Shown here one piece after another: positions 1,301 to 55,773 of a stretch of DNA of 64,000 nucleotides. Under the pieces are notes generated by a model that saw nothing but the letters and a program-made list of their open reading frames with translations, was not told the DNA's origin and ran no database searches. Position 1 is the stretch's first letter, and every line of letters begins with the position of its first letter. The position numbers and the translations under genes are program-made. Origin of the DNA: Balanoglossus misakiensis (lineage: Eukaryota; Animalia; Hemichordata); the NCBI GenBank assembly GCA_040954595.2, contig CM082586.2:2795124-2859123 (forward strand). Direction: 5' to 3'.

Positions 1301-2379
1301 GTAAGTTGTCCAGTGTGCTTTGATACCACAACTCTACGATTCCATTCCGTAATTTGATTCAGTTATTCTTATATAAGATGATATTACTTTCATTTTATCA
1401 CATGCTAGAATAGTTTTACCTTTTGCTCAACAAACAAGGGGCATGGAAATGCATACAAAAGACCATATTCATCGTTTTATTTTCATTTACTCCACACACG
1501 ATACGATATACGAGTCTTTGATTCGATTCTCGTTAGCACGTCGTGAAGGACAACACATCGACGCTACAATAGATATTGTCCTGTCATTCTTTGTGGCCGC
1601 AGTCACGCTAGTGGGACAACAATTCAAGGGTGTTCAACCGTATCAATACCTCCAGTCGGACCGATTCAGGTCAAATGAGAATATGAAAAAATAAGTAATG
1701 CATTAATGACTATATGATGAGAGTTATTACCCAAATTGGCCAAAACTGCCGGAATTAAAGCCGTGACTGTGAAGCTTGAACCTCAAATTGAAAGCTCGTG
1801 GGCTAAAAACCACGCAATCGACGTCGTTTATTACCCCATGAAAAGTATGAAAAGCGTAAAAAGAGCATCGGAAATCACAATATAAGCTTTATGGGGCCAG
1901 TGATCCTCGACGCCATCTTGACGGCCCATATTGAAAATATACAGCCAGGCTGAAGTCAACAAAAGTTAAATTAAACTTTACATGTTGACAATAAATCTGT
2001 CTTAAGTCGAAACACATGCTATAATTACACACATAGCTACGAAAAGTGTCTCTGTAACTGTTTGCTCATGATCTCGGTGTTGCGACGGATCAGGTACCGC
2101 AGATATGCGGAGATTTGGTTAAAGTCGCCTTAGGGAAGACATAATAAAATATCCAAGCAACCGACATAGATTCACATGTGCCTACTCATTGTTGCATCAC
2201 TGAAATCAGGCGATTATAATCTCTGTCAACCAATGTCGAGATTGTTAACTAACAACTGCTGACAAATTCATATTTTTCTATTTAATTTGAAGGTCGGGCG
2301 ATTATTGCACATTTGGCACCAACAGCCGAAAGAGAACCATTGGATCTTAACCAGAAGAGGTATACAGCCTACAAGCAAG

Positions 2380-5300: not shown

Positions 5301-5742
5301 CATCGGCGAGGAGTTCAGAGAGAACAAGTCGACCTTGGAAATCAGGGAGGATCTGTGGCAGCTCTGCGTCAAGATCCAGGCCACAGAAGCTGCGGAGGCC
5401 GTTGAGGGCGTCACGGTTCTAAGAGAGGAGGATATCCCGAGCGTGGCGGTCATCCTGACGGAGGCAGAGGTCGACAGCGCTGTGGAAGCAAAACTGAACG
5501 CACCCGAAGAGTCGGACGACGCCGATGTGGAAAGAGGGGACGATGGAACGGCAGAGGACGATTCCAGTGACGTCGACGCCGACGAGTTACCTGCTCACAA
5601 AATGCTGAGGAAGTGGATTGACAGGAGAGCGTCAGCCGGCCAGCGCGCAACGTTGGCGGAGCTGCTAGATGCCGTGGATGCAGTCGACAACGCGGACAAA
5701 GAGATCAAGACTCGCGTGGAGAAAGCCCTCAATATCACTTGA
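2380..5742 (+). CDS. Cytosolic coiled-coil + ZU5 + UPA + tandem death domain protein (UNC5C-like/UNC5CL-type module), ~890 aa, 5 coding exons
   Basis: Exons 2380-3334, 3539-4197, 4403-4549, 4684-4869 and 5017-5742 have GT-AG boundaries and consistent phases (2673 nt). ATG is in good context (caagATGG). ZU5: MDRNGGFLSV..GVHVFVPP..VSPVVRVGPAGLNLDQVAILTIPHC. UPA: FRLHVWNDTP..LEKQQFGG. Death domain: ELCEILD..DWRGLA..SPT. No signal peptide or TM segment seen. AATAAA at 6011. Confidence 0.85.
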
Positions 5743-7260: not shown

Positions 7261-10200
7261 ATGGCTCGAGAGCAGCAGAAGTTCTTCGCTCTACTTCTGG
7301 TGTCGTTTGCCCTGATACCGCACGTGAAGCTGTCGGATCCGTATTCGTTCGGTAAGAGACAACTTTGAATTTTGCTTTCACGAGTCAACGCTCTGCCCAC
7401 GGTCACCCACACCACCGAATGTCGTGCACTTGTGGTTCACAAAAAAATGACAGCAGGGTCACCTTGACCACGAGCACTGCAGATGCCTTGACCAATCTCT
7501 AGAGTTACACTGCAAATCGAACCAAACAAGTTTGACACCAGCCACTGCACAACCCCACTACTAGTGGTAGACAGGCAATCAAACCTCGCACTTATCAGAG
7601 ATTTTTGCCAAGTTGGTCAGACTCTCTTTAATATGTTGCTTGATTCGATTCAATGAGGATGCTCATGTCAACATCCAGATGTGCGAATACATGTAGTTGT
7701 TTTCGCTCTGTAGCCATAGCTAATATAGACATTAGAACAATTATGTTAACATAGTGATGCATTGATTTCGAGCTGGTTTTCGATCCCCTGATCTCGAATT
7801 CACTCTAATCAACTATGCCGTGACCACGTAACATTGTTTGTTTTCAACACAGCGATATCAGAGCCAGTTGTTTTGTGTATCATCATAGACAGACCGCTGT
7901 CTACGGCATCATTCAATCATTCACTGCAGATCAGGAACGATTTTGGTGACGAACTGATGACGTGTGCTTGATCATAGACAAGGCTATGTTTTTTATCATG
8001 GCTGCACAATGGTCCGGCACACCTGTTGACTGTAGTGCTTTTGCACGGAATCGTAGCTTTGTGTGACGTCAGAGAGCGGGTACAGACCCAATGGATGAAC
8101 ATGTAGATACGCGAGATAAACAGGCAGGGGTTATCAGAAACCAGTGTCTGGACGGATGTGATCACGCAAGGTAGAAACGGCCGATGTATCTTATCAGCAA
8201 AGGGGCGCCTTGGAGATAGTATCATATTTACACGAGAACATTTATCATTAGTCAGTTGGCCAGTTATCAGCGAGTGATTAGAATGCGACGTCAGCCAAAC
8301 GTTTAATAATCTCAGGCATCTATTAATCAAGTCTTGCAAGATCTCACAATAAGCCGAAAATCGTCAGTTGCTAGGGAATATCTAATTCTGCACTTTTGTT
8401 TTTCACTCCCGAAGAGCATGATGGGAAAGCCTATACGGTACACCTTGATGAGGTCACTTGGAAAGAAGCCTATGATTTGTGCAAGGCGGAATTGTCAGTG
8501 TTGGCCAAAGTTCCCGACCAAGAAACGCAGGACGCCATCGCCGGCTATCTGGGCAGCGATGAAGCGTTTTCGTCAGGTAAGATTCCCCAAACCATATTGA
8601 AAATGATATCGCGACGACGGTCCAATATGTCTTCCCAAGACGTCTGAGTATATTGTCCTCAACGGTATTCTTTGAGAGAGTTTGTGATCTGCATTTCAGG
8701 GAGCTTTTGGATCGACTTGCGTGACACGGACGAAGAGGGCGTATGGAAGGACTCGGAGGGAGATGAACAAACATTCACAGCCTGGACCGCCGGCGAGCCC
8801 AACAACGGTGGTTATGAAACCAACCGGGAAAACTGTGCTCATTTGTCGTGGTAAAGTAAAAAAACAAATATTGTGTTTTCTATTAAAAAAAAGAAAGAAA
8901 GAAAAAGAAATCCTTATGAAACACACTGGAACCAGAACAGTTATCGTTTTATCATCGTGATGGGTCCCCGACCCCGCAAAACAGTCACCAAAACGATTTT
9001 AAAGTCATTGACTTCCTAGCAGTGACACTTGGCCAACACTTTCACAATGTCTTCACGTACTTCTGCACACAGGGAACACAACTTCCTATGGAATGACCTA
9101 AAATGCAAGAGTCGCATCTACTTTATATGCCAGTCAGGTAAGTCAATTGTTGAATTATAATTTATCATCGGCTGTATAGCACTAAGATGGAATAGAATAC
9201 AGTATGTCTCATCTAAAATATGCAGAAGAATGTCGGATACAGTGATTTTGAACATTTTAGCTTCTATACCGCGCGTTGTTTCACGCAGATTCGACACCCA
9301 ACAAGTGCTACAACGAGCCAGAAGGGAATGACTACGTGGGGACCGTGTCCACGACCGTGACGGGCATCGAGTGCCAGTACTGGTCCGAGCAATATCCCCA
9401 GTCGCACGGCAACTTTAAGCCCTACCCCTCGCTGAGCGGACACAACTACTGCCGCAACCCGGAGGGCAGCGGGGACAGGACGTGGTGCTACACGACGGAC
9501 CCCGACACCAGGTGGGAGTATTGTGATGTGGGTTCCTCACGGTTTCCTTGCGATCCAGGTTTGTAGCTATGTCACCTTAAAGGCCTATGATCGCCTTATG
9601 CGCATGTGCGTAATTTCTCTGGTTTGATACATGCCCACAACACGATCTTTGACCGCGCATTAAAAGAAATAGAAAAACAATTTCCGACATCATTTTACCG
9701 AGGCTACGAAACAAAGGTCACAGATTAAGCTAATAAAGGTAAAAAATATTATGTGGGAAATTGCTTCAATCACACTTTGAAAGATTATTACACATTGCGA
9801 TGTTTTTTTCAGGGCTTGTTATGACGACCTCAATTGTCTAATTGCGTAAACGTAGTGGCATTTATCGTTTGCAAAAGACAGATGTATCATATTCAAGGGA
9901 CATTAGCTGTATCCTGTGATTATTTTTCCGGTAGTTAAGTTCTGTTCTATCAAAACAAAATTTGTTTTCAAGATGACGACCCCGAATGCTATTCAAGGTA
10001 TGATGGCGCAGACTATGCGGGTCGCGTCAATGTGACTGCAAACGGAAAAACCTGCCAGAATTGGAACGAGCAGACCCCCCACCGACACTCGTACCGGGGC
10101 GATGACTATCTCGTCGGGCACAACTACTGTCGCAATCCGAGTTTTTCTCGAAACGGGCCCTGGTGTTATACAACGAACCCCGATATTCGCTGGCAGTACT

Positions 10201-13200
10201 GTGACGTCTGCGGAGAAGGTGAGGCATCTAGACATTTTGATGTGAACAATTTTCTGGTGGAGCTGCTAAATCAAACTCAATTTGTTCTATCACAGGAAAT
10301 GTCCAACAGTAATACGTTATATACTGTGACCTGACATCGCATCATTCAACCACATCAGAATATTGATTGTGGACTATCAGGTTCAGCTGTTAGTTTCAGA
10401 AAGTCCCTTCCTAGGGGCGTTAAACTACAGCGCGACATAACGACGACACCGTGCACTTTATGTTTTGCAGGTATACCCACTGACAACATCGCCCTCAACA
10501 AGCCCGCCAGCCAGAGTAGTCTGTTCCAAGACAACGCCGTGGCAGGAAATGCTGTCGACGGCTTCAAGAGTACATACTTCGGAGACGAGTCCTGCACCCA
10601 CACTGACCTTGAAAGCGAGCCGTGGTGGAAGGTCGACCTTGAAGACACGTACTTCGTCACCGAAGTAATCATTACGAACCGCAGAGACTGCTGTGGTAAG
10701 CAATGCTTAAAGTCGATGACTTTGATTCTACACAAAAATATAAGCACGTCAATCAAATATGTAATATGATCATCAAAACAGAATGATATGCGCTTTGAAT
10801 AAAGTCGGCGGCGGCCAGGAGTAAAATGTTATACTGGTTCTTTTAATCAGCGGAGCGATTGGAAGGGGCCGTGGTACGCGTTGGTTCAAAGAGAGACGGT
10901 TCTATGAATGGACAATGTGGGGAACCAGTCAGCGCTTATGACGCTGCCGAAAAGCACATCCTATATTTCCAGTGCGACAGCGACGCTGTTGGCCGCTATG
11001 TCAGCGTTCACCTGGAAGCGAAATACCAGCATTTGACATTATGTGAGGTTGAAGTCCGAGGAACAAAGGGTGAGTTTGACAGAGTGTCTCCTGTAAACAT
11101 GTAAAACACTGTGTATTTACATGTATGCTGTGAACCGATAAAACTAACAGAAAAAGTTGGGACGGAAAATTCAAAAACGACACAAGTAGTCCAAAGCCAC
11201 GACCGCATATGCAACCCTCGAGGAAGGTGCACAGCGTGGCTATTAAATGTGAAATAATTGCAGAAAATTACTGAGATCACTGACATATGTCATAAGATTA
11301 TCTATTTCATTGTACTGCAGCTGACTTGTGGAGACATGACGGCCGCTGTGGTCCGAGATACGAGGTAGTATCCAACCTGGACGGAGAATGCAATCCCAAT
11401 TCTGTCCTCACTTGCTGCTCGGGTTATGGATGGTGTGGCGCTTCGGCTGACCATTGCGAGTGTCGCGATTGCATCGACTACACGAAAGTCGACAATGTCG
11501 ACGAAACTTCTGAAGAGGATGAAGGTAAAAAGAGCGAAGGGGGGGGGGGTGAGAGTGTTGAACACCCAACACTTTGGCTAGTTGGACACAAAACCCTACG
11601 CCTACCGACGGTGTCGCAATAAATGGCAGCGAAATTTGCACAAATGGTGCAAGCTGTACCATTGATTTTGATTTTCGTTTGCCTTTAATCCAACCCCTTA
11701 ATATTAAACATGCACCTTACATGTCTTCTTAACAGAAAAAGTGAATCTTGCCCTAAACAAAGCGACTTCACAGAGCAGCCTCCACTCGGACCGAGGGGTG
11801 GCAGACCACGCTGTTGACGGCTTCAAAAGCAGCCAATGGATTGATGGTTCGTGTTCACACACTTTGTTAGACTTTGAGCCCTGGTGGAAGGTGGACCTAG
11901 GTGACACCTACCCTATTGGCCAAGTCGTCATCACAAACAGGCGAGAGTGTTGCTGTAAGTACCATGTGGAGTTATTGGGTGTGGCTGAGGTATGTTTACT
12001 TGATTAAAAAGCTTGCTTCTGCCAGCATCATACTTTAAAATTACTCTTTGAATCAAATAATCGCTCTTACCACGAGGGTAGCATTTACATTACAGGTGCA
12101 TAATCACCTATGCAAATTTAGCTAAAATTACCAAGGGCAATTGGGATCTAGCCAATCACAGACTTTTGCGGGGTGGCCGCGCGAATAAAAGTGCGCCACT
12201 TGAAGGTCACTCGAAGATTTAGACACGCCATATATGGGCATATGTAAAAGTACTGTTGACACCTTGAACCCGCCCTTCAATCCGCAGCGGAACGTCTTGA
12301 AGGCGCTGTCATACGCACAGGAACAGAGGAGAGTATCAGAGAGAACGCCGTCTGTGGTGGCGCTGTCAGCATAGACCAAGTGACTGAGAAATCCATAACC
12401 ATCGACTGCGGCGGGCGCTTTGGTCGTTTCGTCAGTGTACAGATCGAAGGCCGAGAAGAATACCTGACACTGTGCGAAGTCGAAGTTTACGAAGCTGACG
12501 GTAATGACATATCTATTTTCATTTCCCATGGCGGGAAATGTGGTTTACCATCTACCACTATAGCCGATGCCTGAAACAAGTGGTGACCTTTCACCGACTT
12601 TCCCACATCTCGACAACCAAAGCAAAGTCAGCTTTGGCATTTGGAGGGATTGAACACCTAATATAAAGCTCGGGTTGTAATGGCTACTAATTTCATCTAT
12701 ATTGATCTACAGTAAATTGGCGAGCCGACGCACAGTGCGGTCCAGGGTTCACGGCGCCAAACGGAGTGTCTCCGGCAGAGTGTGACCCGCACGGAATTTA
12801 TCCTTGCTGTTCAACGGCCAACTGGTGCGGAATCAGCGCTGACCACTGTGAATGTTACGGTTGTATTGACTACAGAGAAGTATATGGAGGTGAGTTCACT
12901 ACAATGTCTTTGTAGAGTTCAAAAGTCCACTATACCATAGAGGGACTATGACTAACGACAGATCTGAATGTATGTGTCTGTTTGAGACCACACAACACCA
13001 CACCAAACCAAGCCAAGCCAAGCCAAGCCAAGCCAAACACTCCTTACCACATATTTCATGCCATCCCATACCATATCACATAGAATACATCTTCACAAAA
13101 TGTATCAAGTCAACAGCGTCTTATCATACAGTTCAATCCAATTCACGTTTCACAGTGCTATGTGTATGTCTCTTTCTTCTAGTATCCCAGTCACCTGTCA

Positions 13201-16200
13201 GCGCATGTTCACAACCAACAAGGATTACTATTGTTGGTGACGAAGAAGTGACTGTGACGTCACCAGATTATCCTAACATCTACCCCAGTTATGCAGATTG
13301 TCGATGGTTTATAACAGCGGATTCCAATTCTGACATCCAGGTATAGTCTCTGTTACCCCAAGGTCAAGTTCCTCCGAGAAAGTGTTTGGTCGGACTTCTT
13401 TTCTGCAAATTGTGTCATTAAGATGTGTTACCAAGCAGATGTGATCTTATACACGTTCTTTTAACCTTATATGGGCATATTAAAATTAAAAGTGAATGTA
13501 TCCTTTGAACGTATAGGTTACGATCAATTACGTTGATCTGGAAAACTGTTGTGCAGATGTCTATATTGGAACAGGCGATACCATCGGAAACAATGACTTG
13601 TTCACGATAACTAACGACATGTCTAGATCTACGGTTGCCGAGTCCAACGAAGTGTGGATTCAGTTTGACAGTTCTGCAAGTGAAGTGAGGCAAGGAAAAG
13701 GTTTCAGCATCGCGTTAAGGGGACAGCCTAAAGGTAGGTTTCCTAGGGGGGCTTGGGACCTTTTAGAAGTATCGATCTTAATTCTTTCAGAGTATGAGAA
13801 TAGCACTCCTGCCAATATAAATATTCTGGTTAGATTAGAATTGATGGTGTAATCCTTTGAATATGCCACAGCGCGACACAAATGATCTACAGTTACAATA
13901 TGCCAGATGTTTTCCAAATGATCAACATGAAATGCGGAAAAGCTCAACTTTCAATCTATTTTCCTCTAAGTTTCTACAGCTAATTCATGGCGAGACGACG
14001 TACAGTGCGGTACATGGTTCGAGGCGCCAAATGGAGTACATCCGGCAGAATGTGACCCGCACGGAATTTATCCTTGCTGTTCAACGGCCAACTGGTGTGG
14101 AATCAGCGATGACCACTGCAAATGCTATGGATGTATTGATTATAGGGAAGTGTATGGAGGTGAGTTGATGATGCATAGATTGTGCATAGATTCGCATCCG
14201 CATCCATCGTACCACTTTGAAAGCATACTCCGTGTGATACCAATCATGTTGTCTATCCTCTTCCTAGTAACCGAGTCGCCTGTCGATGCGTGTTCAGAAC
14301 CGAAAAGGATAACTATTGTTGGTGACGAAGAAGTGACTGTGACGTCACCAGATTATCCTAACATCTACCCCAGTTATGCAGATTGTCGATGGTTTATAAC
14401 AGCGGATGCCAATTCAGACATCCAGGTATAGTCTCTTTTACCTCAAGGTCAAGTTCCTCCGAGAAAGTGTTTGGTCGGACTTCTTTTCTGCAAATTGTGT
14501 CATTAAGATGTGTTACCAAGCAGATGTGATCTTATACACGTTCTTTTAACCTTATATGGGCATATTAAAATTAAAAGTGAATGTATCCTTTGAACGTATA
14601 GGTTACGATCAATTACGTTGATCTGGAAAACTGTTGTGCAGATGTCTACATTGGAACAGGCGATACCATCGGAAACAATGACTTGTTCACGATAACTAAC
14701 GACATGTCTAGATCTACGGTTGCCGAATCCAACGAAGTGTGGATCCAGTTTGACAGTTCTGCAAGTGAAGTGAAGCAAGGAACAGGTTTCAGCATCACGT
14801 TAAGGGGACAGCCTAAGCCTAAAGGTGGGTTTTCTACGTGGTCTTTGGGACATTTTAGAAGTATCGATCTTATTTCTTTCAGAGTATGAGAATCGCACTT
14901 CTGCCAATATCAATATTCTGATTAGTTTAGACTTGATGATGTAATCCTTTGAATATGCCACAGCGCGACACAAATGATCTACAGTTACAATATGCCCTAT
15001 GTTTTCCAAATGATCAACATGAAATGCGGAACCGGAAAAGCTCAACTTTCACTCCATTTTCAACTAAGTTTCTACAGCTAATTCATGGCGAGACGACGTA
15101 CAGTGCGGTACATGGTTCGAGGCGCCAAATGGAGTACATCCGGCAGAATGTGACCCACACGGAATTTATCCTTGCTGTTCAACGGCCAACTGGTGTGGAA
15201 TCAGCGATGACCACTGCAAATGCTACGGATGCATTGATTATAGGGAAGTGTATGGAGGTGAGTTGACAATGAATAGACTGGGCTCTAGACTTATGGAAAG
15301 GGCGTGTTAAACGTTCTTCGCATCCGCATCCATCGTATCACTTTGAAAGCATACTCCGTGTGATTCCAACCATGTTGTTATTCCTCTTCCTAGTAACCGA
15401 GTCGCCTGTCGATGCGTGTTCAGAACCGAAAAGGATAACTATTGTTGGTGACGAAGAAGTGACTGTGACGTCACCAGATTATCCCAACTTCTACCCCAGT
15501 TATGCAGACTGCCGATGGTTTATAACAGCGGATTCCAATTCTGACATCCAGGTAAAGTCATATTTACTTCATGGACAAATTCCTCCGAGAAAGTGTTTGG
15601 TCGGACTCGGACCTCTTGCTGCAAAGCGTGTGATTGAGATGTTGGCATACGTAAGTAAAGAGTGGTTGTATCCTTTGAACTTATAGGTTACTGTCAATGA
15701 CGTCGATCTGGAAAACTGTTGTGCAGATGTCTACATTGGAACAGGCGATACCATCAGAAACAATGAATTGTTCACGATAACCAACGACATGTCAAGATCA
15801 ACAGTTGCCGAGTCCAACGAAGTGTGGATCCAATTTGACAGTTCTGCAACTGGCGTGGAACGAGGGACAGGTTTTAGCATCACGTTAAAGGGACAGCCTA
15901 AAGGTGGGTTTCCTAGGGGGCCTTTGGGACTTATAGGTGCGTTGATCTGGCCCTCTTCGCTCATATGCTGAAAAATCGCACTCCCGCTCCAAAATCACTG
16001 TGCCGTTTGCGTAAGGTTTCTGGGTATAATCTTGGGATACCGATATTCAACTCTGGAGGACACGCGTGTTCCTAATTACCAACAGCACTGGTGGAGAATC
16101 TCGCATTACCAATCTTTTTCAACTTCCACTTTCTTGAAGGACCGTCTTGGCGAGAGGACCTTCAATGCGGTGGGGGATGGACAGTACCAAATGGAGTTTC

Positions 16201-19200
16201 CCCGGCTGAGTGTGACCCCTATGGAATCTATCCCTGCTGCTCGACGACCAACCGATGCGGGATCAGCGATGACCACTGCAAATGCGACGGTTGCATTGAT
16301 TACAGAGAGACCTACAACGGTATACTCATAATATGATACGACTTTGATGCTCGGTACACAAAAAGGGCAGTGGATGAAACGACGTCTCACTTACTCAAGA
16401 CGTTTGTTTCCTCAAACATGTCTTTTGCGACTGTCTTGTGCACATATCAGATGGTACTTTTAGGTTTCTTGTGAGTCCTGGTTCCACTGTTTAACGGCAG
16501 AGCTCGGAAATCGTAATGATTTAGCAGACCTTTTTACGCAACACTCCGTTAACGCCAGTCAAATGGCATACGCTTTAGTAAACGATTGAATAGAATCCAA
16601 TGTATTTTTTCTCCAGTTGGTGACGAATCGCCTGTCGCCGCTTGCAGTGAAGTTAAACATCTCCAAATTCCGAAAGGCGGAGAGGTCAACATAACGACCC
16701 CTGGCTACCCCGGCGTCTATCCAAATTCTGCCAACTGTCGATGGATGGTTTCAACAGAAGACCCGAATGATTACATTGAGGTAACAAGAAGTTAAAAACG
16801 TATAATGGCGAGGGTACTGAATCAGATGTATACCTAGCAATGGTGACCCTCTGTCTGTCAACTTTGTTGGCTGTATCTGGCGAGGCAGCACGTGATAGAC
16901 TGAATGAATGAGCCACTGTCACTCTAGGTTTATGAGGTTTCCTTTCTGTTGATTGCAGATCCAGGTTGACAGAGTTACTATGGAACCTCGCGACACAACT
17001 TATGTGGGAATAGGGCCAAGGTTCGGTTACGATGGTGTACTTCGTGTAGAAGGAAATGTCGGACCTATAAGACATACAGTGCGGCTGTCGAAAGTTTGGG
17101 TCCAATTTCAATCGGACAACAATTATGCGTATCAAGGTTTCCTCATGACCTTAAGAAGTAAGATACCAGGTAAATGCATTTGCATAGGTGACTTTAAAGG
17201 TTCTAGCTTTCAAAGTCATATTTTTAGTCGATGCGACGATAATTTCTCATTATTAATTAACAATTATTGTAATTTATCCCTCCGACATCACTGGCTGGTT
17301 GGGGGCCGGGCCACTTGCCTGGCTGCCGACAACCCATCAGAACATGCAATATAAACCAAGCAAAAAAAAACAAATCTTGATCCAGATATAATATATCGGC
17401 ATTATTTATGATGATAACCTGAAGTCCTCACCATTTTTTTGCACTGCAGATCCAGAGCCGAGAGAGATAGGTACCGGAAGTGCATGTTGGTCCGTGGAGA
17501 ACGTTCAGTTATCAGACAGGGATATTTTCCGAATAAGTTCTCCGGGCTACCCGTCAGAGTATCCCGATGATGCAACCTGCAAGTGGTTACTCTCGACCAC
17601 CAGTCCGAACATCAGGATGAAGGTAGGTCTCCTGATTCTTTGAAGTGGTTTACTATGAAAGAGGTAGAAGTTTTCACCACCTAGGCGAGTGATAAAAATC
17701 TCGTGTGGTCACGATGGCGGATTGCTGCCATATTTGGTAAATATGAGCAGGAAAAATATCAAAAGAAATGTCAACGAGTTCTAATTATGAAGACGGAACG
17801 TGTAAACAATGTTCTGTGCATGTGCTGCAAATATGCGCTACGATTCGACGCGCACCTAGTAGGCTAGTATGTGGACACAACGTTACGTGCAAATACTGTC
17901 GTAACATATCAGCTTCATACACAGGCATATTATGTCCTCACAGCGATAACAACGCAAACATATATAAACGTTGATGTACAATGTGATTGCAGGTTGAGTT
18001 CTTGGCATTCAGTACTGAAGAAGATGGCGATATACTGGAGATTGGAAGCGGTGATACATTTGACGAGAATCGTATCATTTCAGCATCGGGCAGAGATTAC
18101 TCGGGATATGTTCCACCGCCGATAACAGACACGTACACAAACTTGTGGATGAAATTTGAGAGTGACTGGGTCTTGTCGGGTACTGGATTTCAGGTGGAAG
18201 TTACAACTGTGGTGGAATGTACGTATTGAACACAAGAGACCAGACCAGAATTCAGACAATGGACTTGGATTCAATTGAATTGAACAGGATAGATAAAATG
18301 GGACCGTATATATGAATTGAATAGAATTACAGTATAAAACAAGACATTATAAAGTAGAATAAAACAGTATACATAGTACAATACAATACAATACATAACA
18401 ATACTGTACAATATTGCAATGTTAATTGGGCGTGGTTACTGGTACTTGACTTCAAAGCTTATTTTCCATTGCACCAACTAAAGGACAATGATGTCATTGC
18501 TTCTAGATCCAGAAGACCCTGTCTGTACAAGTCGCTGGTCAAACAAATCGGGTCCTGGGGATGACGCCCAGGCGGAAGTTGAATGTGAAGACGACGAGAA
18601 GATGACGTCATGCAACAGTGCGACGAGCGACAGAGAGTCGCACGGCACAAGGGATGGCGAAAGGATTGACTACGTGACACTCAAGCCCAAGTGTGTGGCT
18701 CAAAACGGAGCCGGTGGATTGGGTATGCAGGTTTTCTATTTACTATCTGGATACCGTGCGATTTTCTGATGATTTTCACCACATTGCGAGATCTCGCGAG
18801 ACTTGGTTTATTACTGTAGTACAAGTCGAGCATTCTATCAAATAAGACCAGGTGGAGATTTAAACAAAACTAACTTTAAACTTTCACATGAATATCCTCC
18901 GATATAAACTGCCCAGCTACGTGAGATCTCGCGGGGTTCGGGAAATGGTATATTGCTCAATGATAGTACATGTTTTTCATCCCTGTTTTCCATTTCAGGT
19001 GTATATGCTGTAGCTAGATGCTGCAAGTGGCGTGGACTCCAGTGTTACTACACCGATTCGACCCAGAAGTCCGGCACTGAAGACGACGACACGGCAGAGG
19101 CGATGTGTGAAGGAAACATCAATGGCCTCCCTGTCAAAACCGTCGGTAAGACTTCTAATTTATCTTAATCCATGAGGTACAAGTAATAAGCCTTGATTTT

Positions 19201-20263
19201 GATAGACACGAGGTTCTTTTGGGGATCATTTTCTTTACTAAAAACAATGTATTTGTCCACAGGTTGTATGGCGCATACACTTGGACAGTGGCTTGATGGA
19301 GCTCGACCGTGGTCTAATTCAGACGATTTTACACCCAATCTGCAAAGTCCCTTCTCGGCGAACGGCTGCGTGGCACAGAATGGCATTTACGGCGACGGTC
19401 AGTGCTTCATCAAATATCTTTCTTTCTCTGACACCACTGCTTTGCAATGTTTATGGCCAATTGGGATACTAGTTATAGATATACGCTCTAGACCAGATGG
19501 CTGGCTGGCTGGATGGATGGATGGATCGACGGATTTTATATGATGGGTATACACAAACGGATTAGAATCTCCACAAACTCAGGATAAGGATCAGGGGCAA
19601 AATATCCTACATACGGGGCAGCTACTGTGGCTTTATCCGTTCAGAAAAATCTCCCTCCTGTACATATATTATATGTTACCCCCACGCAGGTGTTTGGGCT
19701 GGTGCAGCCTGCTGCAGTGCACCTGGTTTGCGGTGCCAGCACGTCTATTCTGAGAGAAGTCCAGGTGTTTCCAATGGCGTGGCGTTCGTCCGATGTGACG
19801 AGGGTTGGATAATGACAGGGTGTAGCGTGTTCACCTACTGGGGTGTCACTGATGGAGCTTACATTACTGGTAAGAAATTTCAGACATTTAAATAAAAGTG
19901 CTGTTAATTGTACCATTTTATAACAGTTAGCACATTAAACTCATTCAATTTGTTTCCCTTTTTGTTTGTTTTTTCTGTCACAAAGTCTCTGAACGACCAA
20001 GTTTCACTCTAGCTTTGAAATTCTATCGGCAATCTTGGAATTCTCGACCATGCGAGATTTTAATCGCTCACCTAGGTAGCCAACACCTATTTAAGGTAGC
20101 GAGAATTGAAAGTACAATCAGTAACTTAACATGAACATCCCTTCTGTTTCTCTAATCAGCTGACGGTACATGCAAGGCGATAAATGGCGGCCAAGCGAGC
20201 ATGGGCAACAACACACGCGGTGTCTGGGCAGTTGCCATCTGCTGCAAGGGCAGCGAGGACTGA
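7261..20263 (+). CDS. Secreted mosaic multi-lectin protein (~1822 aa, 30 exons): SP-CTL-Kringle x2-FTP-hevein-like-FTP-(hevein-like-CUB)x4-CUB-PCSK9-type C-terminal domain
   Basis: Exons 7261-7351, 8415-8576, 8700-8850, 9073-9137, 9289-9558, 9973-10218, 10471-10695, 10851-11069, 11321-11524, 11736-11954, 12288-12500, 12713-12889, 13183-13340, 13517-13733, 13980-14159, 14268-14425, 14602-14824, 15078-15257, 15394-15551, 15687-15903, 16140-16319, 16617-16780, 16959-17169, 17450-17622, 17993-18218, 18507-18722, 18999-19145, 19263-19397, 19690-19869, 20160-20263. All are GT-AG and phase-compatible (5469 nt). Signal-like N-terminus MAREQQKFFALLLVSFALIPHVKLS. Ends AVAICCKGSED*. AATAAA at ~20552. 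Confidence 0.85.
8415..9137 (+). other. C-type lectin domain (3 exons) with EPN and WND motifs
   Basis: TWKEAYDLC..LAKV; FWIDLRDTDEEGVW..WTAGEPNN..ENCA; WNDLKCKSRIYFIC. Confidence 0.9.
9289..10218 (+). other. Two kringle domains, one per exon (9289-9558, 9973-10218)
   Basis: CY..G.DY.G..G..CQ.W..HNYCRNP..WCYTT.P..RW(E/Q)YC in both exons. Confidence 0.92.
10471..12500 (+). other. Two F-type lectin (fucolectin/FTP) domains (10471-11069, 11736-12500) separated by a hevein-like exon (11321-11524)
   Basis: N(I/L)ALNK..SQSS..AVDG..C(T/S)HT..PWWKVDL..V.ITNRR(D/E)CC..ERLEGA..LTLCEVEV. Confidence 0.9.
12713..15910 (+). repeat. Tandem triplication (~1.1-kb unit) of hevein-like + two CUB exons, including the introns
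   Basis: Equivalent donors at 13340, 14425 and 15551. Introns 13341-13516 and 14426-14601 are almost identical, as are 13734-13979 and 14825-15077. Confidence 0.9.
13008..13036. repeat. (CCAAG)n pentanucleotide repeat
   Basis: Read directly from the sequence; lies in an intron of the mosaic gene. Confidence 0.85.
18507..20263 (+). other. PCSK9-type C-terminal cysteine-rich (resistin-like) domain, modules M1-M3
   Basis: Three 6-Cys modules. M1: CTSRWSNKSGP..VECEDDEKMTSCNS..RDGERI..CVAQNGAGGLGVYAVARCC. M2: CYY..AMC..VGCMAH..CVAQNG..GVWAGAACC. M3: SAPGLRC..VRCDEGWIMTGCS..GAY..GTC..VWAVAICC. These closely parallel the recalled human PCSK9 motifs CRTVWSAHSGP..GVYAIARCC, CCHAPGLEC..CEEGWTLTGCS..GAYA and VTAVAICC. 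Confidence 0.85.
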
Positions 20264-20922
20264 TCGTGTTCGGTGAAACAACGGGCTGGTTTAGATTTAG
20301 AACCCCAATATTAGTCGACATTTGTTAAATAGAATACTTTACGGTGTATCAACTGAATTTCTTTGGATTTCGTTTTACGCACACTTTATACTACTTATCT
20401 TATATACTCTTCAGTCCTACGTTTCGGGCGTTGCGTAACTTTACCACAACGCAGAAACGATATGCGACGTACAACGCAAAGATTATCGACCACAAATTGA
20501 GAACTCCTCCAAGGTGAGGCCATTGCATCACGCAGTGCAGCGGCCATGCAAAATAAACTCTCGCAGGAGATAACATAACAAACTTACCTCGTCTTGAATT
20601 TTGTCCAGAAACGCTGGCAAGTGTCGGTGATAGCTTATCCATTGAAATGTCGCTCCAACATCACCTGAGGTTTTCCTGTCGTATTCCGGGTATTCCACAC
20701 AAGCGACGCGATATACTAAAACTGTGACTTTCTCCGAAACTACATTCAGTCCAAATAAACGCCAATGGCATAAGGTTGTAAAGATGACCGCTTGGGAAAA
20801 AATTGAGTCTGTTTCTGTCTTTCTCCCTCGATACATGTCCCTGCATGGATTCAGCCTCGAGGTGTGCGCACGGCAAACTCCATTTTGTCTTTTTGTGATG
20901 GTAATAATCTCCCCCCCCCCCC

Positions 20923-21961: not shown

Positions 21962-23630
21962 TTAATAGTCTGGAACGAGGCTGATACCAGTCCTATTAAT
22001 ATACGTAATCAATTTGTGGGCACGTTTCTCCGTGACGTTAATGAGCTTTTCCACAAAAGGTCTTCCGCCTTGTTCTTCCCAGTACACTTTGTCAATGTAG
22101 AGAGACTGAAGCATCAGATCCTGGAATTTTCCAGATTTTAAAACCGATATTGGGTACTCGGGTATCCTGAAACAACATGAAAGAGATAAAAGTCTAGTAG
22201 ATATTCAGATGAACTATTCAAAATCTGTTTTTTTTTCTGCATCATACCGGTTATAAGTGAGATTCTAGTACAGTTTAGATTTTGGGATGATTGATCGATA
22301 CATGAATTGGATGGTCGGTCGTTTGAAAATCGCTCGCCCCTCTCTTCTCTCTCTCTCTCTCTCCATGTCGGTCACATCAGTTAAACTTACTCTTGAATTC
22401 CTTCTAGGAGCCTGTAATTCAAATGTTCGGCGCTTCTATTCAAATTAAAGACATTGTCAATAAAGACTAGACGACTTTCATCCTGCGTATGGGTGAATAT
22501 ATGAACCAAATGCTGGCGTTGTATGTCTATGCATTCGTTGTCATAGAGACCATTTGTAAAACACGGCTCGCCTTCGTCTCGGTCATAACCACAGAAACTT
22601 CTGTCGATACGGTCATGATTCTACAAAATGAAAAGAAAAGCTTGGTCAGTACATGCGCCCATATTACGAAATTTGAATTAGACAGTTTTTAAAAGAATTC
22701 AAAAAATATTTAACTTACTTGTAAAAGAAAGTCGTATATTGCTAATTTGCCCCACTCGATGTGTCTAATTTTTGCCGTGCAGTTAACATTTAGCTCCGAT
22801 TCTTCCATGTTTTCCCGCGCAAAGCAGCGATTGGCCAACTCCCGTTGGTAGTCGGTCCACCACAGGGACATAGAGTTCTGGTCTGGTTGGAGGGTTCCTG
22901 AATGGCGGATATGGGGATCCCACCAGACAATTGGCCGGCACTTGCCGTCCGAGAAGCGGCTCCCGAACGCCTCAAACACCGCGTCGTCTGTCTCGTTGCC
23001 GCCGAATCTTCTGGCCACGGTGGGTAGAACACGATTCAGACCAAGTACTCGATCTAGATGGAAAGCATACACCTCGTGGATGTCCTCAGCGCTTTTCTGC
23101 ACCCCGCACTGGTCCACACACTCTCCGAAGCTGTTAATCGCTGGTCCCCTGCTGTCTTCAAAGATTACCTCCTTGAGTCGTATGTGGCGATCGACCGAAA
23201 AGGCGCTGGAAATGTTCCCGTTTGACACCAGCTCCATCCTGAGAACATCGCTCCTGTCAAACCAGGGCGGAATATACGCATCGAACCGTAGATTCGAGTT
23301 GTTCTTTTTCCTGATTTCCCGCAGGAGGTCGCCGTCTTGCTCGTACACGAAGGGCGGTATCTCATCAACATCCACGTTCAATATTCGCTGAACTCTGTAG
23401 GCGCCGTCCCGGTTGGCCACAACGAACAGCTCTCCCGACGAAATCTGCCGGAGCGTCGCCGAAGGAACCACGCTGCTTTTTCCCGGTGAGTAGGTCACTG
23501 GAGAAGGCAGTATACTTGTGAAGTTTCCGTTCAGATATACTTGCAGCGTCACCAAGAGAATCAGAATCGCTGACACCAACAAAACTGCCCAAAATCTGTT
23601 CAGTGTTAACACTTTGGTCGCGGTAGCCAT
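21962..23630 (-). CDS. GASK1: FAM198/GASK1-family Golgi-associated kinase paralog (short stem), ~448 aa
   Basis: Exons 23630-22719, 22620-22391 and 22166-21962. N-terminal type II anchor FWAVLLVSAILILLVTLQVYL. Motifs CGVQK, EVYAFHLDRVLGLNRVLP, EWGKLAIYDFLLQ, HDRIDR, LVFIDN, LNYRLLEGI, LQSLYIDKVYWEEQGG. Confidence 0.9.
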
Positions 23631-25027
23631 GGCGACGTTCCAGAATGTCGCCAGGTGTATGTGGGCTCTCAGCTGTGCAACACACGGACGTACTTATTTG
23701 GTTTTAAGTCTGCAATGTCAAACAGACGTACAAGTTACAAAACAATACTGTTAAACACTTATTTATTATTGGTGATGACTTCATGTATGTACAGCAACAA
23801 GCACACGTTAGTATAAATAAAGGTATGTTGGTTCCGACGGTATCGTAATACCAGAAAATGTCCATTTCACCCCCATTGCAATTGAGTCAAAGACCAACGC
23901 ATGATGTCAGTTTCTTGTTGGTAAATTTCCCTTTTTCTAGTAATCAACAACCCCTCTACCAAGAAATTACACCCCACAGCAAGACGTTCTATGGCCGCAA
24001 GAATTAGCGCTTTGTGTGGTATGACACACATAGCGGTCACCGGCCGCCGCACACACAGACTCGTTTTCGCTGCGGTGATCTCAAGCAGAAGTGTTTACCA
24101 GCAAAAAGATCATTAGCATACAATGCAGTGAGTGTACACGACAGTATATTCTTTCATCTTGCACAGTATTTCACAGACATGTTCTAAAACTACACTAACG
24201 TGGATCTTTCGTGGCTGGTTTAATACGCGGCACCACGCGTTACGAGGAAAACGTGGGCCTTTCGCGTTTAGTTCGATACTTACGCACAAGTCGGTAAGTA
24301 TATTTCCGTACCATTGTAGGCCTAATAGGGTAATAACAGCAGACGACACCAGTATTTAAAAGTCAGAAAAACAAACCTGCGGCTTCTGGCGTTGGTCTGT
24401 TTACAACATCCTAGACATTTTGTCCGGCGTTTTCTGTCACACGCTATAGTCAGAATAACTGTCCAACGAACCCGAAGGTGATAAACTGATTATGATCACC
24501 ACGGACTTGACAATTTTGTACGACGGTGTGCCCCCGTGAAGGTCAGGCCACTGATAAACATGTCCCTGGTAAGGGCGTCGAACATTAACAAGACGTTGGA
24601 CAAAACCATTATGTAGTGGGGCGGACTTTAGCTGGCACGCAAATGACACTTGTGAACAATCGTTCAGCAAAATTAATTTTGCAATAGGGGGCGTAATTAG
24701 TGCTGCATTGTATCAGAGCCTTCATTTTGTATGATTTTACGGCATGCATGTAAGGAAACGGAGAGAAAAGAGTTTTGGCATAGGTTCGCCCCTGTCGTAA
24801 GCATCGTGACCCCACTCTATCGTAGTAGAATAGTTGATTTAGTATTGTATGTTAATGATTTTTCTGTTCGCACTTGAGATTTACACATGAGCCGGTAACT
24901 GGCATAATATTAGCTGCTCGAAAGAGTGACCCCGAATCATTTCATAAACATGAGTTTGTCGTTCATATTGACAAGTTGTTTAGTAAGTACCAAGGAAGTT
25001 TTATGTCCACAGGAAACGTTAACAGTG

Positions 25028-26340: not shown

Positions 26341-27489
26341 GTAAGTTTGTTTTAATCGTCATACGTGACGTCACGAGCACCCTACTCATCCGAGTGGTAT
26401 ACATATGACCTTTGTCCTCGCAATCAGAACCTGGTTTCTGACGTTGCGACGACTGAGAGATCGACTGTCATCGACCCGGTAGACCTCGGCTGTCCCCCGC
26501 TCCACTTCTGGCTCAAGTCGAGCGCGCTGCATGATGGGTTCCAAAAGAAAGGCAAGTTGTGTCTCTTTAATACAATCTCTCACCGTGACAAACGGATGAC
26601 ACTTCTAGTACAGCGGAGGTCCAATGGCAAGACGAGTCGACTTTGAGCGCTCTGTCTTAATCTTCCACTTGTACAATATCTGAGACATGTGGCAAGATGC
26701 ACGATTAGATCTCAAATTATTTGAATACACTAATTGATGAAGCAACAACTCAAATTGTGCGTGTATAGTCACACGTGTTCGCAGTACAGGCCTTCTGCTG
26801 TGCAGTTTGCAGACTTTCTGGTAGAACACTGGGCGTCTTGAGGATTGAAGAGTTTCTCCTAGTCAAACACCTTGTTTGGTGAATATACATTACGATCACC
26901 TTGATTTGAAAAAGGGGATGTTTGTCCCGATACCGGGATGTCGCCTTCTGCTTCAGTAAAGCGCCTCAACTGGCATCTGTTGCTGAGATATTTATTTGGG
27001 ACCACCTGTTGATTATGGGAAAAAAAAGCTCGCAGTAATTTCTGAAAAAAACTGGTTGCAATCTTGTCACACACCGGGAAGCATTGATAACGATCTGTTC
27101 TGTTCAAGGTAGTCTGTGGGGCTACCACAACCAAACTGAGATGATCAAACAGTGCATGGACGGTTAAAATTAATGTCGGCCGTCCACTTCAAACAGCGGT
27201 TGCGATTGTCAGGTGTAACGACCTTGTGTTGGACAGTGATCGTAAATCATTTAAGAAGTACTCGGAATATTCCCAAATGCTGAGATCGGACTTCAAAAAC
27301 ATCACGCCAAAACAGTGAGACAAGTCCTCTACTAAGTTTTAAGCTTCGGTGAATCCATCGTGGTATATGCCATTTTTATGCAGGGGGTAGTTTCCTTGAA
27401 CATGTGTCCTTCTTCTTCATATATTTCAATCATTCAAAGCTTTGAACGAAAATTTTATCATTATCCAGGATCCGGCGTTTGAGGACGAG

Positions 27490-30163
27490 ATGAAGAAGAG
27501 ACGCTTCCTTGTCTTGTTCCTGCTATGTGGCGCGTTCATAGCCACTATATTCCTGTACAGTAACATCTACTCTAATCGGAGGAATGAAAACGGGGTTATC
27601 ATCGTCAACATCGGCGACGGGGCGAATTTCCAAAAGAAGGTCTCCGTGTCATCTGGTCACACATCTGGTAACAGTGTGGACAATTTGACGCGCGTCAAGC
27701 ATCCTGCTGTTTTGCGTGGCGCTGCAGGGGACGGGGAAGATGCAGCTGGAGTTGAAAACACCGTCACGGAAAAAGTTGACGACAGCCCTGCCAGTGACGA
27801 AGAGTTTCGTCATCCCCGTGCCGGTGTGAAGATAGCTGTGAGTGGCGCCGCATCCAGAGACGAGACGAGAAGAGAGCGCGACAACGTAGTGGGCGACGAT
27901 ATGAACGAGAGCGTAACACTTGCAAATAAGGCGACAGTTGCCAGTGATGTCGCAAACAGCGAAAATCGTGGTATTCAAATCGCGCACAAACTTAATTCGG
28001 GTGAGCAATATCCAGAAAAGGGAGACATTTCAGGAAAAACAACAGACACCGAGAATAATTTTTCACAGGTGAATGGGGTAGAAGAACGGGAGAATGCCAC
28101 TGAGACATTTTCTAAGGACTCGGACGGAAGACAAGGATTGGAAGGGAAGCTTGAAATTCGTGAGCACACACTCATGCCGAAAGTCAGGTCACATTTGGAC
28201 CGAGATAAATCTAACATTTTGAACATGTTGACTGAGAAAAGGAGAATGCCAACAGGGCAAGTAGATTTAGCTTCGGATGAGGATAAGTCAACTCGTCAAA
28301 AAGATGAAAACCATGTTGGTCGGGAAAGGATTGAAGACAGCAGTGAGAGAGCAGGGGAAATCGAATCTGACAGAAGGATGAAGAGTACCCAAGGCAGTGT
28401 GGTTGTTACTGATGATGACGGAAAGAACCTTAGACACGACAGCAGAAGCCAGAGCTTTGACACACCACGTGGTGATGGGGCAGATGGGTCTGAAATTAAG
28501 GCCGGCCATCACGAGGCTGCTAGGGAGTTCTTCGATCCGTCCAAATATAAAGACGAAATTCCCGAGAGGCCGACAGTTGCCTCGGATGAGTACGAAGAAC
28601 GGCGGAGAATGAAAGAAGAAATGGATAAGATGAACACAAAGGACGAGGACACGCCGAAGGGTTTATCAGCTGTTTCCAGGGAATTCTCAGAAACGACCAA
28701 GGAAGATGAAGTTGATAAAGAAACTCCCGATGAGGACCAACAGCCGGCACCAAAATGGTGGGATTTGCTTTCAGAGAAAGAGTTTATGAAATTCATCGAC
28801 GGTCTGAAGAACGAGAAGCTGAGATTCGGCGAACGAATCCCGAAGTGGTTGAGCCGCGCCGACGTCGTGCGAATGGAGATGCTGTCTGTGTCGACCGTTA
28901 CCGAAGTCTACCACATGGACGATCACGAGAGGTTAAGACTTATGATATTCAACGACGGTCGGAGCGAGCAGATTCTCGACTTTGATGACTGCACTGAGCA
29001 GTGCGGCGCCCAAAAGAGCGTCGTTGATTGGTATGAAATCTTCGCTTTTCATTTGGACCGGGTGCTGGGGCTCAATCGGGCACTGCCTTCCATCGCCCGG
29101 GTGATCAAGGCCAGATCGGACGAGAGGATTTTCCGACACGATGACCGATTCACCGATGGAATACCGCGGCCGCTCATCTGGTGGGACCCGAACATCAAAC
29201 ACGGTGGCTATCTCATGAACAACCAGAATTCATTGGATCTTAGTTTCACCGAATACCAGGAGCAATTAAAGTACAGGTGCAATTCACCTTACGAAAAGGA
29301 GCACGCGAAAAACCACTGCATATCTAGAATTAAACTGATTGAGTGGAGCAAACTCGCGATATTTGATTTTCTTTTGCAGGTAAGTGCGCCCCCTGTGTCC
29401 AGTTGTCTGTGCCACAAGACGCGATATCGATTTTGATTGACATCATCATAAAAAGCGACGCCGCTCGTCACCTTGCTAAAAATCTCCATCCCAACTATAT
29501 TGTTAGCATGTTCAGCTGAGGCCGTTCGAAATCTTCAGACACCTGTTGATAAACTCACCTCTTGATAATGCATATACATGTACTTCTGTTTCTAGATTCA
29601 CGATCGCTTGGACCGCAACTGTTGCGGATATGACGTCGACGAGGGAGAGCTGTGCATGGCCAATGGGATGCACGACGACTGCGATGACGTCGACAAACAG
29701 TTCTTGGTGCACATCATGACCCGCAAAGACGACAGCTCGCGACTTGTGTTCATCGACAATGCTGGACATCGCAAGAGGAGTGCAGAACATTTAAATTTCC
29801 GACTGCTGCAAGGAATGCAAAAGTGAGTCGTTCAAGTTCAGGTAGAAAGGCATTTTCTTTCAGTATGTTGTTCTCTTCGATTCCATTCCATCTCTTTGAT
29901 TCTTTGAAGTTACTTCGACTAATACTTTGATTATTTACACTATATATTAATTTCTTAGAGTACCACAAGAACCCATCGAAGTCTTGAAATCTGGTGAGCT
30001 GAGAGATATGCTTCGACAGTCACTGCAAATCGACAAATTGTTTATGGAAGCAGTTGGAGAAGACCAAGGGGTCAACATACTCATCGATATCATCGAAACC
30101 AGGGGAGAAATACTGCTGGACTATATTGAGGAACACAATATCGAGATAGTGCCAGATTACTGA
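27490..30163 (+). CDS. GASK1: FAM198/GASK1-family Golgi-associated kinase paralog (long acidic stem), ~773 aa
   Basis: Exons 27490-29379, 29596-29822 and 29959-30163. Anchor MKKRRFLVLFLLCGAFIATIFLY. Motifs CGAQK, EIFAFHLDRVLGLNRALP, EWSKLAIFDFLLQ, HDRLDRNCCG, LVFIDNAG, LNFRLLQG. Intron positions are the same as in the minus-strand paralog. Confidence 0.9.

Positions 30164-32447: not shown

Positions 32448-55773
<23,326 letters not shown>

What the first reader, a model, noticed from the sequence alone, without database searches (positions are those of the whole stretch)
18507..20263. Complete PCSK9 C-terminal Cys-rich domain with no protease, attached to a giant lectin
Seen: five exons splice in frame into three tandem 6-Cys modules (18 Cys) ending AVAICCKGSED*, and no prodomain or subtilase catalytic motifs occur anywhere in the gene. 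Known: this three-module resistin-like domain is characteristic of PCSK9, where it follows the subtilase domain and is required for routing LDLR to lysosomes. Inference: the domain is a mobile module re-used outside convertases. Unlike the His-rich human domain, I count only about 3 His and many acidic residues, so the proposed pH-sensing role may not carry over.
Basis: partly seen in the sequence, partly recalled or inferred. Interest (0 to 1): 0.9.

Follow-up and report, generated by a model that had tools for sequence, protein, structure and literature searches.

The report
Acorn-worm lectin with PCSK9-type tail
A 30-exon gene, most likely from an acorn worm, encodes a large, likely secreted sugar-binding protein that ends in the three-part tail domain of the human cholesterol regulator PCSK9 but has no protease; this tail is a mobile module common in invertebrates and likely serves here as one more surface-binding head.

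Summary
Exons 18507-20263 splice in frame into a 260-residue, 18-cysteine PCSK9 C-terminal domain. It ends a 1,822-residue protein: signal peptide, C-type lectin, two kringles, two F-type lectins, five hevein-like and five CUB domains. No subtilase lies in the window. Orthologues with the same architecture sit unnamed in RefSeq for two acorn worms (tail 71-73% identical). One orthologue's predicted tail matches human PCSK9 (Z 28.6).

The protease-free domain is not rare: 16 of 17 profile hits lack a subtilase. It occurs alone, on mollusc and brachiopod xylanase-family proteins, on a crinoid membrane protein and in protist-like sequences. This scan noted it before on other DNA (a foraminifer gene, bacterial look-alikes). 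Low histidine is also seen in amphioxus PCSK9, so it does not mark loss of the protease.

New here: a Ser/Asp/Asn loop triad is kept in 70 of 88 non-vertebrate modules and 0 of 24 bird modules. It suggests a ligand-binding face lost in vertebrates; this is untested. Ten literature searches found no description. Verdict: new variant of a known kind, moderate interest.

The parts
7261..20263 (+). Whole gene, 30 coding exons, 1,822 aa; 23 of 29 introns phase 1
   Evidence: orthologue P0001 aligns along it
7261..7351 (+). Exon 1: start codon and likely signal peptide (the only strongly hydrophobic stretch of the protein)
   Evidence: hydropathy scan; no signal-peptide predictor was run
8415..9137 (+). 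C-type lectin domain (exons 2-4) with EPN and WND motifs
9289..10218 (+). Two kringle domains (exons 5, 6)
   Evidence: E 7e-21 and 7e-20
10471..11069 (+). F-type lectin (F5/8-like) domain 1, H-x26-R-x-D-x4-R motif
   Evidence: motif as in PMC5712786 (written there with x24)
11321..11524 (+). Hevein-like (Chitin_bind_1-like) domain
   Evidence: E 5.5e-4, below the Pfam cut-off
11736..12500 (+). F-type lectin domain 2 (Glu in place of the motif Asp)
12713..17169 (+). Four [hevein-like + CUB] units (exons 12-23); units 1-3 recently duplicated or homogenised
17450..18218 (+). CUB domain 5 (exons 24, 25)
18507..18722 (+). Exon 26: PCSK9_C module 1, strands 1-5
18999..19145 (+). Exon 27: last strand of module 1, start of module 2
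19263..19397 (+). Exon 28: middle of module 2
19690..19869 (+). Exon 29: last strand of module 2, most of module 3
20160..20263 (+). Exon 30: end of module 3 and stop codon

Best explanation
The gene encodes a likely secreted multi-domain lectin that ends in a PCSK9-type three-module tail with no protease, and the tail likely works as one more multivalent surface-binding head rather than as an LDL-receptor sorting signal. Shown: the exon structure, the domain order, the absence of a subtilase, the orthologues, and the tail being the best-conserved part of the protein. Predicted: the PCSK9 beta-prism fold, from an orthologue's tail. Inferred: the module was added by exon shuffling at phase-1 introns. 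Inferred: the C-type, F-type and hevein-like domains bind microbial or food-particle glycans in mucus or body fluid, with CUB and kringle domains as spacers or protein-binding units. Inferred: the conserved S-x-x-x-D-D, D-G and N-G loops lie at one end of each module and form three ligand sites, probably for a glycan, perhaps with calcium.
For: Domain order, in-frame splicing and no transmembrane stretch. Same architecture in Glandiceps and Ptychodera RefSeq models. Tail modules 1 and 3 are 73-78% identical to the orthologues and module 2 63-67%, against 51-72% for the lectin, kringle and hevein blocks. Model of the orthologue tail: pLDDT 94, Foldseek 7anq E 4.9e-18, Z 28.6, rmsd 1.9 over 213 residues. 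The same module sits at the C-terminus of GH10 + CBM4_9 proteins of molluscs and a brachiopod, a place often held by carbohydrate-binding modules (general knowledge). It also occurs as stand-alone proteins with signal-peptide-like N-termini. The Ser+Asp+Asn triad is present in 70 of 88 non-vertebrate protease-free modules and 3 of 3 window modules, against 0 of 24 bird modules, so the fold does not need it. The three motifs fall in the strand 1-2, 3-4 and 5-6 connections, which point the same way in an antiparallel sandwich (inference from topology). In P0010, three kringles are inserted exactly at the position of intron 26. The related PLP1 beta-prism is a target-surface-binding domain (PMC6294395).
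Against: No ligand, binding or expression data exist for any protease-free member. The triad could be turn-capping or protein-binding rather than sugar-binding. It is weaker in the GH10 fusions (8 of 15 modules), where a glycan role would be most expected, and amphioxus PCSK9 has it in 1 of 3. The bird contrast is one lineage, and most non-vertebrate rows are related hemichordates (54 of 88). Co-location of the loops was not measured on coordinates. Known ligands of the human tail are proteins (CAP1, HLA-C, annexin A2; PMC9816786). No lectin of known specificity matched the fold at a convincing score.
Confidence: 0.5

Rival explanations
1. The tail is the effector end of an opsonin: the lectin domains bind the target and the tail docks on a host-cell receptor to drive uptake, as the PCSK9 tail engages protein partners for lysosomal sorting.
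For: The human tail binds CAP1, HLA-C and annexin A2 and is needed for LDLR degradation (PMC9816786). The tail is constant and more conserved than the lectin domains, while the number of middle domains varies between relatives, which fits a fixed host partner.
Against: The tail is acidic and His-poor, whereas positive charge matters for PCSK9 sorting (PMC9113161). Its use on GH10 enzymes and in protist-like sequences fits receptor docking poorly.
Confidence: 0.25
2. The tail binds lipid membranes of microbes and may damage them, like the PLP1 APC-beta domain or, as recalled, resistin-like molecule beta.
For: Fold matches to PLP1 (Z 5.8) and RELM-beta (Z 4.6). PLP1 inserts a Trp-tipped loop into membranes. 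The tail has 8 Trp in the profile-matched span against 1-4 in birds.
Against: Net charge is about -14 at pH 7.4, unfavourable for anionic membranes without calcium. The Z values are low and identity is 11-24%. A shared fold shows no function.
Confidence: 0.12
3. The tail is structural: it oligomerises or stabilises the protein, or aids its secretion, and binds no outside ligand.
For: Resistin assembles the same module as a homotrimer. Constant C-terminal position in 6 of 6 family members.
Against: The three modules are predicted to close into one compact prism within the chain. Stand-alone forms made of nothing else are numerous in acorn worms. Loop residues are conserved beyond what the fold needs.
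Confidence: 0.1
4. The fusion is a modelling artefact and exons 26-30 belong to another gene, such as a subtilase or a stand-alone tail protein.
For: No transcript was seen for this gene. Stand-alone versions exist in relatives.
Against: The 288-bp intron after CUB5 leaves little room for a promoter and signal-peptide exon, and exon 25 has no stop before its donor. There is no subtilase in 64 kb. Five independently annotated relatives show the same fusion.
Confidence: 0.03

Closest known systems
PCSK9 C-terminal Cys/His-rich domain (CHRD, V domain; Pfam PF18459/PF18464/PF18463; PDB 7anq)
   Same: Three tandem six-Cys modules, same predicted fold (Z 28.6, 34% identity for the orthologue tail), C-terminal position.
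   Different: No prodomain or subtilase. 3 His against 14 in human. Acidic. Keeps an S/D/N loop triad absent from bird PCSK9. Longer loops in module 2. No PCSK9_C2 hit.
Uncharacterised acorn-worm proteins XP_077990235.1 (Glandiceps talaboti) and XP_070534535.1 with relatives (Ptychodera flava)
   Same: Same domain order from C-type lectin to PCSK9_C; tail 71-73% identical; one clade with the window protein (99/98).
   Different: The number of hevein-CUB and F-type units varies. None is named or studied in the papers searched.
Stand-alone 'PCSK9-like' proteins of Saccoglossus, Ptychodera and Glandiceps; GH10 + CBM4_9 + PCSK9_C proteins of molluscs and Lingula
   Same: Protease-free PCSK9_C domain, 32-50% identical to the window tail.
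   Different: No lectin array, or an enzyme in its place.
Apicomplexan perforin-like protein APC-beta domain (PDB 5ouo, 6d7a, 7pln); resistin and RELM-beta (1rgx, 1rh7)
   Same: Double-layer beta-prism or its single module; binding domains outside convertases.
   Different: Z only 3.8-5.8. APC-beta has four Cys per repeat and a membrane-inserting loop; resistin is a trimer of single modules.
Mosaic F-type lectins of invertebrate deuterostomes (PMC5712786)
   Same: F-type domains shuffled with C-type and other domains; the review notes their diversification in hemichordates.
   Different: The review's text has no occurrence of 'kringle' or 'CUB'; it was not searched for PCSK9.

Membership tests
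PCSK9 C-terminal domain (CHRD) | Three tandem modules with six Cys each | tested here: met
   18 Cys, 6+6+6. Spacings 19/8/26/16, 20/13/33/16 and 19/8/19/22; module 3 fits the ranges in PMC9113161 section 10, modules 1 and 2 have longer loops.
PCSK9 C-terminal domain (CHRD) | Pfam PCSK9_C1 and PCSK9_C3 above cut-off | tested here: met
   C1 met on exon 26 (49.5 vs 31.3 bits). C3 reaches 25.9 vs 26.7 on a partial exon, and both pass in the whole orthologue (77.8, 68.6).
PCSK9 C-terminal domain (CHRD) | Pfam PCSK9_C2 for the middle module | tested here: not met
   No C2 hit on the window exons or on P0001. Amphioxus PCSK9 P0008 also has none, so the model looks vertebrate-specific.
PCSK9 C-terminal domain (CHRD) | Pseudo-threefold double-layer beta-prism fold | tested here: met
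   Predicted on the 72%-identical orthologue tail, not on the window protein itself.
PCSK9 C-terminal domain (CHRD) | Histidine-rich | tested here: not met
   3 His; birds 5-11, amphioxus 3; human 14.
PCSK9 (proprotein convertase, peptidase S8) | Inhibitor I9 prodomain and subtilase domain with Asp/His/Ser triad | tested here: not met
PCSK9 (proprotein convertase, peptidase S8) | Binds LDLR through the catalytic domain and routes it to lysosomes | not testable with these tools
   The catalytic domain that binds EGF-A is absent.
F-type lectin | His...R-x-D-x4-R/K fucose motif | tested here: met
   Present in domain 1 with 26-residue spacing; domain 2 has Glu for Asp. Sugar binding is untested.
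C-type lectin (calcium-dependent) | EPN or QPD plus WND motifs | tested here: met
   EPN...WND in the window and in 5 of 5 relatives; the motif definition is recalled.
Hevein-like chitin-binding domain | Pfam Chitin_bind_1 above cut-off; Ser plus aromatic residues | tested here: inconclusive
   All five score 15-21 bits against a cut-off of 27.8. Only the first keeps the Tyr/Trp pair after CCS.

The most novel reading that the evidence does not exclude
The PCSK9 tail descends from an ancient, pre-chordate three-site lectin-like module. Its S-x-x-x-D-D, D-G and N-G loops bind glycans, perhaps with calcium. Acorn worms expanded it as stand-alone and lectin-fused recognition proteins, molluscs and brachiopods use it as the binding module of xylanase-family enzymes, and chordates fused it to a subtilase, after which vertebrates erased the sites and made it His-rich. 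This would define a new animal lectin family and give the origin of a drug-target domain.
Probability: 0.3. Interest if true: 0.72.

Novelty: new variant of a known kind. Interest (0 to 1): 0.43.

Why it matters
The PCSK9 tail is treated as a speciality of one convertase, and its original job is unknown. Small, natural, protease-free versions and a loop triad lost in vertebrates make that question directly testable by glycan array and point mutation. The caution: the protease-free forms are already visible in public annotation, so the news is the synthesis and the predicted binding face, not the existence of the domain outside convertases.

Tried and rejected
Word-indexed search with exon 26 alone, longer proteins: 0 of 34 candidates scored. 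No whole genome is held, so paralogues and a separate PCSK9 gene in this species could not be sought. RNA runs for 17400-20400: no RNA holder listed, so no reads were laid. Atlas search with exon 26: best scores 0.84-0.87, leads only; one mollusc-rich cluster had PCSK9_C in 10% of members. AU test: a tree joining the lectin tails with the subtilase-bearing tails is not rejected (p 0.465), so direction of origin is undecided. Literature searches listed no paper on protease-free PCSK9_C proteins, judged from titles and abstract starts plus the passages read. Cameron et al. 2008 (PMID 18631360), which I recall included mollusc homologues and may already describe the GH10 fusions, is not held; neither is Hampton et al. 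2007. One supplementary file of PMC10210618 had no PCSK9 mention. Supplements of PMC13554239 were not searched and those of the bioRxiv version are closed; marker lists there may show where these genes are expressed. Earlier-finding searches by sequence and by hemichordate words returned nothing. The sea-urchin lectin SUL-I hit in Foldseek (E 1.5e-4, TM 0.19, rmsd 17.7) was rejected as not a fold match.
Full report
Observation. The window is animal DNA with short introns. Splice-site scanning and translation give one + strand gene of 30 coding exons from 7261 to 20263. It encodes 1,822 residues, all introns are GT-AG and there is no internal stop. Pfam on single exons finds PCSK9_C1 above cut-off on exon 26, PCSK9_C3 just under cut-off on exon 29 and no PCSK9_C2. 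17 of 18 PDB sequence hits for exon 26 are PCSK9. Subtilase patterns (recalled) find nothing in the model. tblastn with amphioxus and bird pro/catalytic regions finds nothing better than E 4.6 in the 64 kb, while the amphioxus tail as control reaches E 4.5e-9.

The rest of the protein. In order: a hydrophobic N-terminus, a C-type lectin with EPN and WND, two kringles, an F-type lectin, a hevein-like domain, a second F-type lectin, four hevein-like + CUB units, a fifth CUB, then the tail. No other hydrophobic stretch suggests a membrane anchor. 23 of 29 introns are phase 1, including every domain boundary, the usual signature of exon shuffling (general knowledge). Introns 26 and 28 sit at the same place in modules 1 and 2, a trace of the internal triplication.

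Relatives. A full phmmer scan with exon 26 returned 17 proteins; 1 of 17 has Peptidase_S8, amphioxus P0008. The best hit is Glandiceps talaboti XP_077990235.1, with the same architecture. A search with its tail among 806-2,568-residue proteins gave 5 of 409 candidates: itself and four Ptychodera flava clusters of the same build. The window tail is 71-73% identical to all five, and in all five a CUB domain runs directly into module 1. These are gene models, not transcripts I saw. A profile of eight stand-alone forms gave 63 of 6,428 candidates: 49 bird PCSK9 entries and 14 protease-free proteins, ten of them named acorn-worm 'PCSK9-like'. Other hosts: GH10 + CBM4_9 proteins of Babylonia, Liolophura, Bulinus and Lingula; a crinoid protein with Sushi and membrane segments; Glandiceps proteins with three kringles inserted at the position of intron 26; and unnamed six-module sequences, one with a MMETSP cluster member. 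Some unnamed hits come from short contigs and may be fragments. Proteins of 616-805 residues were covered only by the exon-26 scan, so non-chordate subtilase fusions could have been missed. The window is most likely from an acorn worm.

Fold. The window's spliced tail was not folded; the 72%-identical tail of P0001 was, with 37 further rows: pLDDT 94.1, pTM 0.92, three six-stranded modules. Foldseek's top 30 ranks are PCSK9 (best E 4.9e-18). The wide VIA search gives PCSK9 Z 28.6 (rmsd 1.9, 213 aligned), then PLP1 APC-beta Z 5.4-5.8, RELM-beta 4.6 and resistin 3.8. The PLP1-PCSK9 likeness is published (PMC6294395, passages).

Histidine and charge. In the profile-matched span the window has 3 His, its orthologues 3-5, acorn-worm stand-alone forms 1-5, amphioxus PCSK9 3 and 48 bird entries 5-11; two mollusc GH10 tails have 7 and 8. 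Human has 14, proposed to act as a pH sensor (PMC9113161 section 10).

Conserved loops. I split 39 tails (31 non-vertebrate, 8 of the 48 birds) into modules and aligned them. I dropped two mis-split rows and counted amphioxus apart. A Ser before the 1-2 loop, an Asp at the start of strand 4 and an Asn after strand 5 occur together in 70 of 88 protease-free modules: 48 of 54 hemichordate, 10 of 13 unnamed and only 8 of 15 GH10. They occur in 1 of 3 amphioxus and 0 of 24 bird modules. At least one Asp of the Asp-Asp pair is present in 55 of 88 against 1 of 24. All three window modules have the triad; module 3 lacks the Asp pair. By strand order these motifs lie in the 1-2, 3-4 and 5-6 connections, on one end of each sandwich. 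This is an inference from topology, not a measurement. The rows are related, so the counts are not independent. Tail modules 1 and 3 are the most conserved blocks of the protein (73-78%).

Tree. 38 tails. Left out: six near-duplicates, one truncated and one register-shifted row, five incomplete matches and 40 birds. Lectin fusions (99/98), GH10 fusions (96/94) and subtilase fusions (amphioxus plus birds, 98/95) each form one side of a branch; stand-alone forms do not. This fits a mobile module that joined a subtilase once in chordates. But the backbone is unresolved, there is no root, and joining lectin and subtilase tails is not rejected (p-AU 0.465).

Mechanism. I commit to a secreted multivalent recognition protein in which the tail is one more binding head, most likely for glycans (0.5). 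The rivals are a host-receptor docking end (0.25), a membrane-binding head (0.12), a structural module (0.10) and a gene-model artefact (0.03). Acorn-worm epidermis is highly secretory and immune cells express C-type lectins (PMC13554239 and its preprint, passages), but neither text mentions PCSK9 and expression of this gene is unknown.

Novelty. Ten searches listed no paper on these proteins. Term searches in PMC7929951, PMC9113161 and PMC2034530 found no mention of invertebrate homologues. PMC9816786 and PMC5712786 were seen as passages. Cameron et al. 2008 was seen only as a reference entry; I recall that it included mollusc homologues, which may lower novelty. Orthologues and stand-alone forms are already in RefSeq with Pfam hits, and this scan noted protease-free forms in other genomes. 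Verdict: real, correctly identified, a new variant of a known kind. Interest 0.43, carried mostly by the testable loop-triad hypothesis.

Noticed in passing
window 2263-5742 +: Upstream gene with a coiled-coil-like N-terminal ORF, a ZU5 domain (E 2e-12) and a weak Death domain hit, a type often tied to innate signalling (recalled).
   Followed up: partly
window 22713-23693 - and 27400-29433 +: Two divergently oriented FAM198 (GASK1-like) genes; the second has a long charged low-complexity stretch before the family domain.
   Followed up: partly
window about 40400-54000 -: Exons with LRR and PDZ hits, likely a Scribble/LAP-family gene; a 16-codon tandem repeat at about 53045-53709 opens long spurious frames.
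   Followed up: partly
window 12713-15903: Hevein-CUB units 1-3 are 85-98% identical in exons; introns 13 and 16 are 98.9% identical while others are 29-89%, pointing to recent patchy duplication or gene conversion.
   Followed up: partly
window 9973-10218 (kringle 2): An RGD tripeptide is kept at this place in the window and 4 of 5 relatives; possible integrin-binding site, untested.
   Followed up: no
P0010, P0020 (Glandiceps): Three kringles are inserted inside module 1 of the PCSK9-type domain, before its last strand, at the position of the window's intron 26.
   Followed up: partly
P0009, P0014, P0017, P0032, P0090: Mollusc and brachiopod GH10 xylanase-family proteins (most with CBM4_9) end in a complete PCSK9_C domain and form one clade.
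   Followed up: partly
P0013 (crinoid), P0015 (unnamed): Membrane-anchored-looking proteins with N-terminal PCSK9_C modules, so the module also occurs on likely cell-surface proteins.
   Followed up: no
P0021-P0024; P0003, P0027-P0030; P0001 with P0004: Each group shares one contig length in its species, which suggests gene clusters; P0004 is also the stand-alone form nearest the lectin clade (93/92).
   Followed up: no
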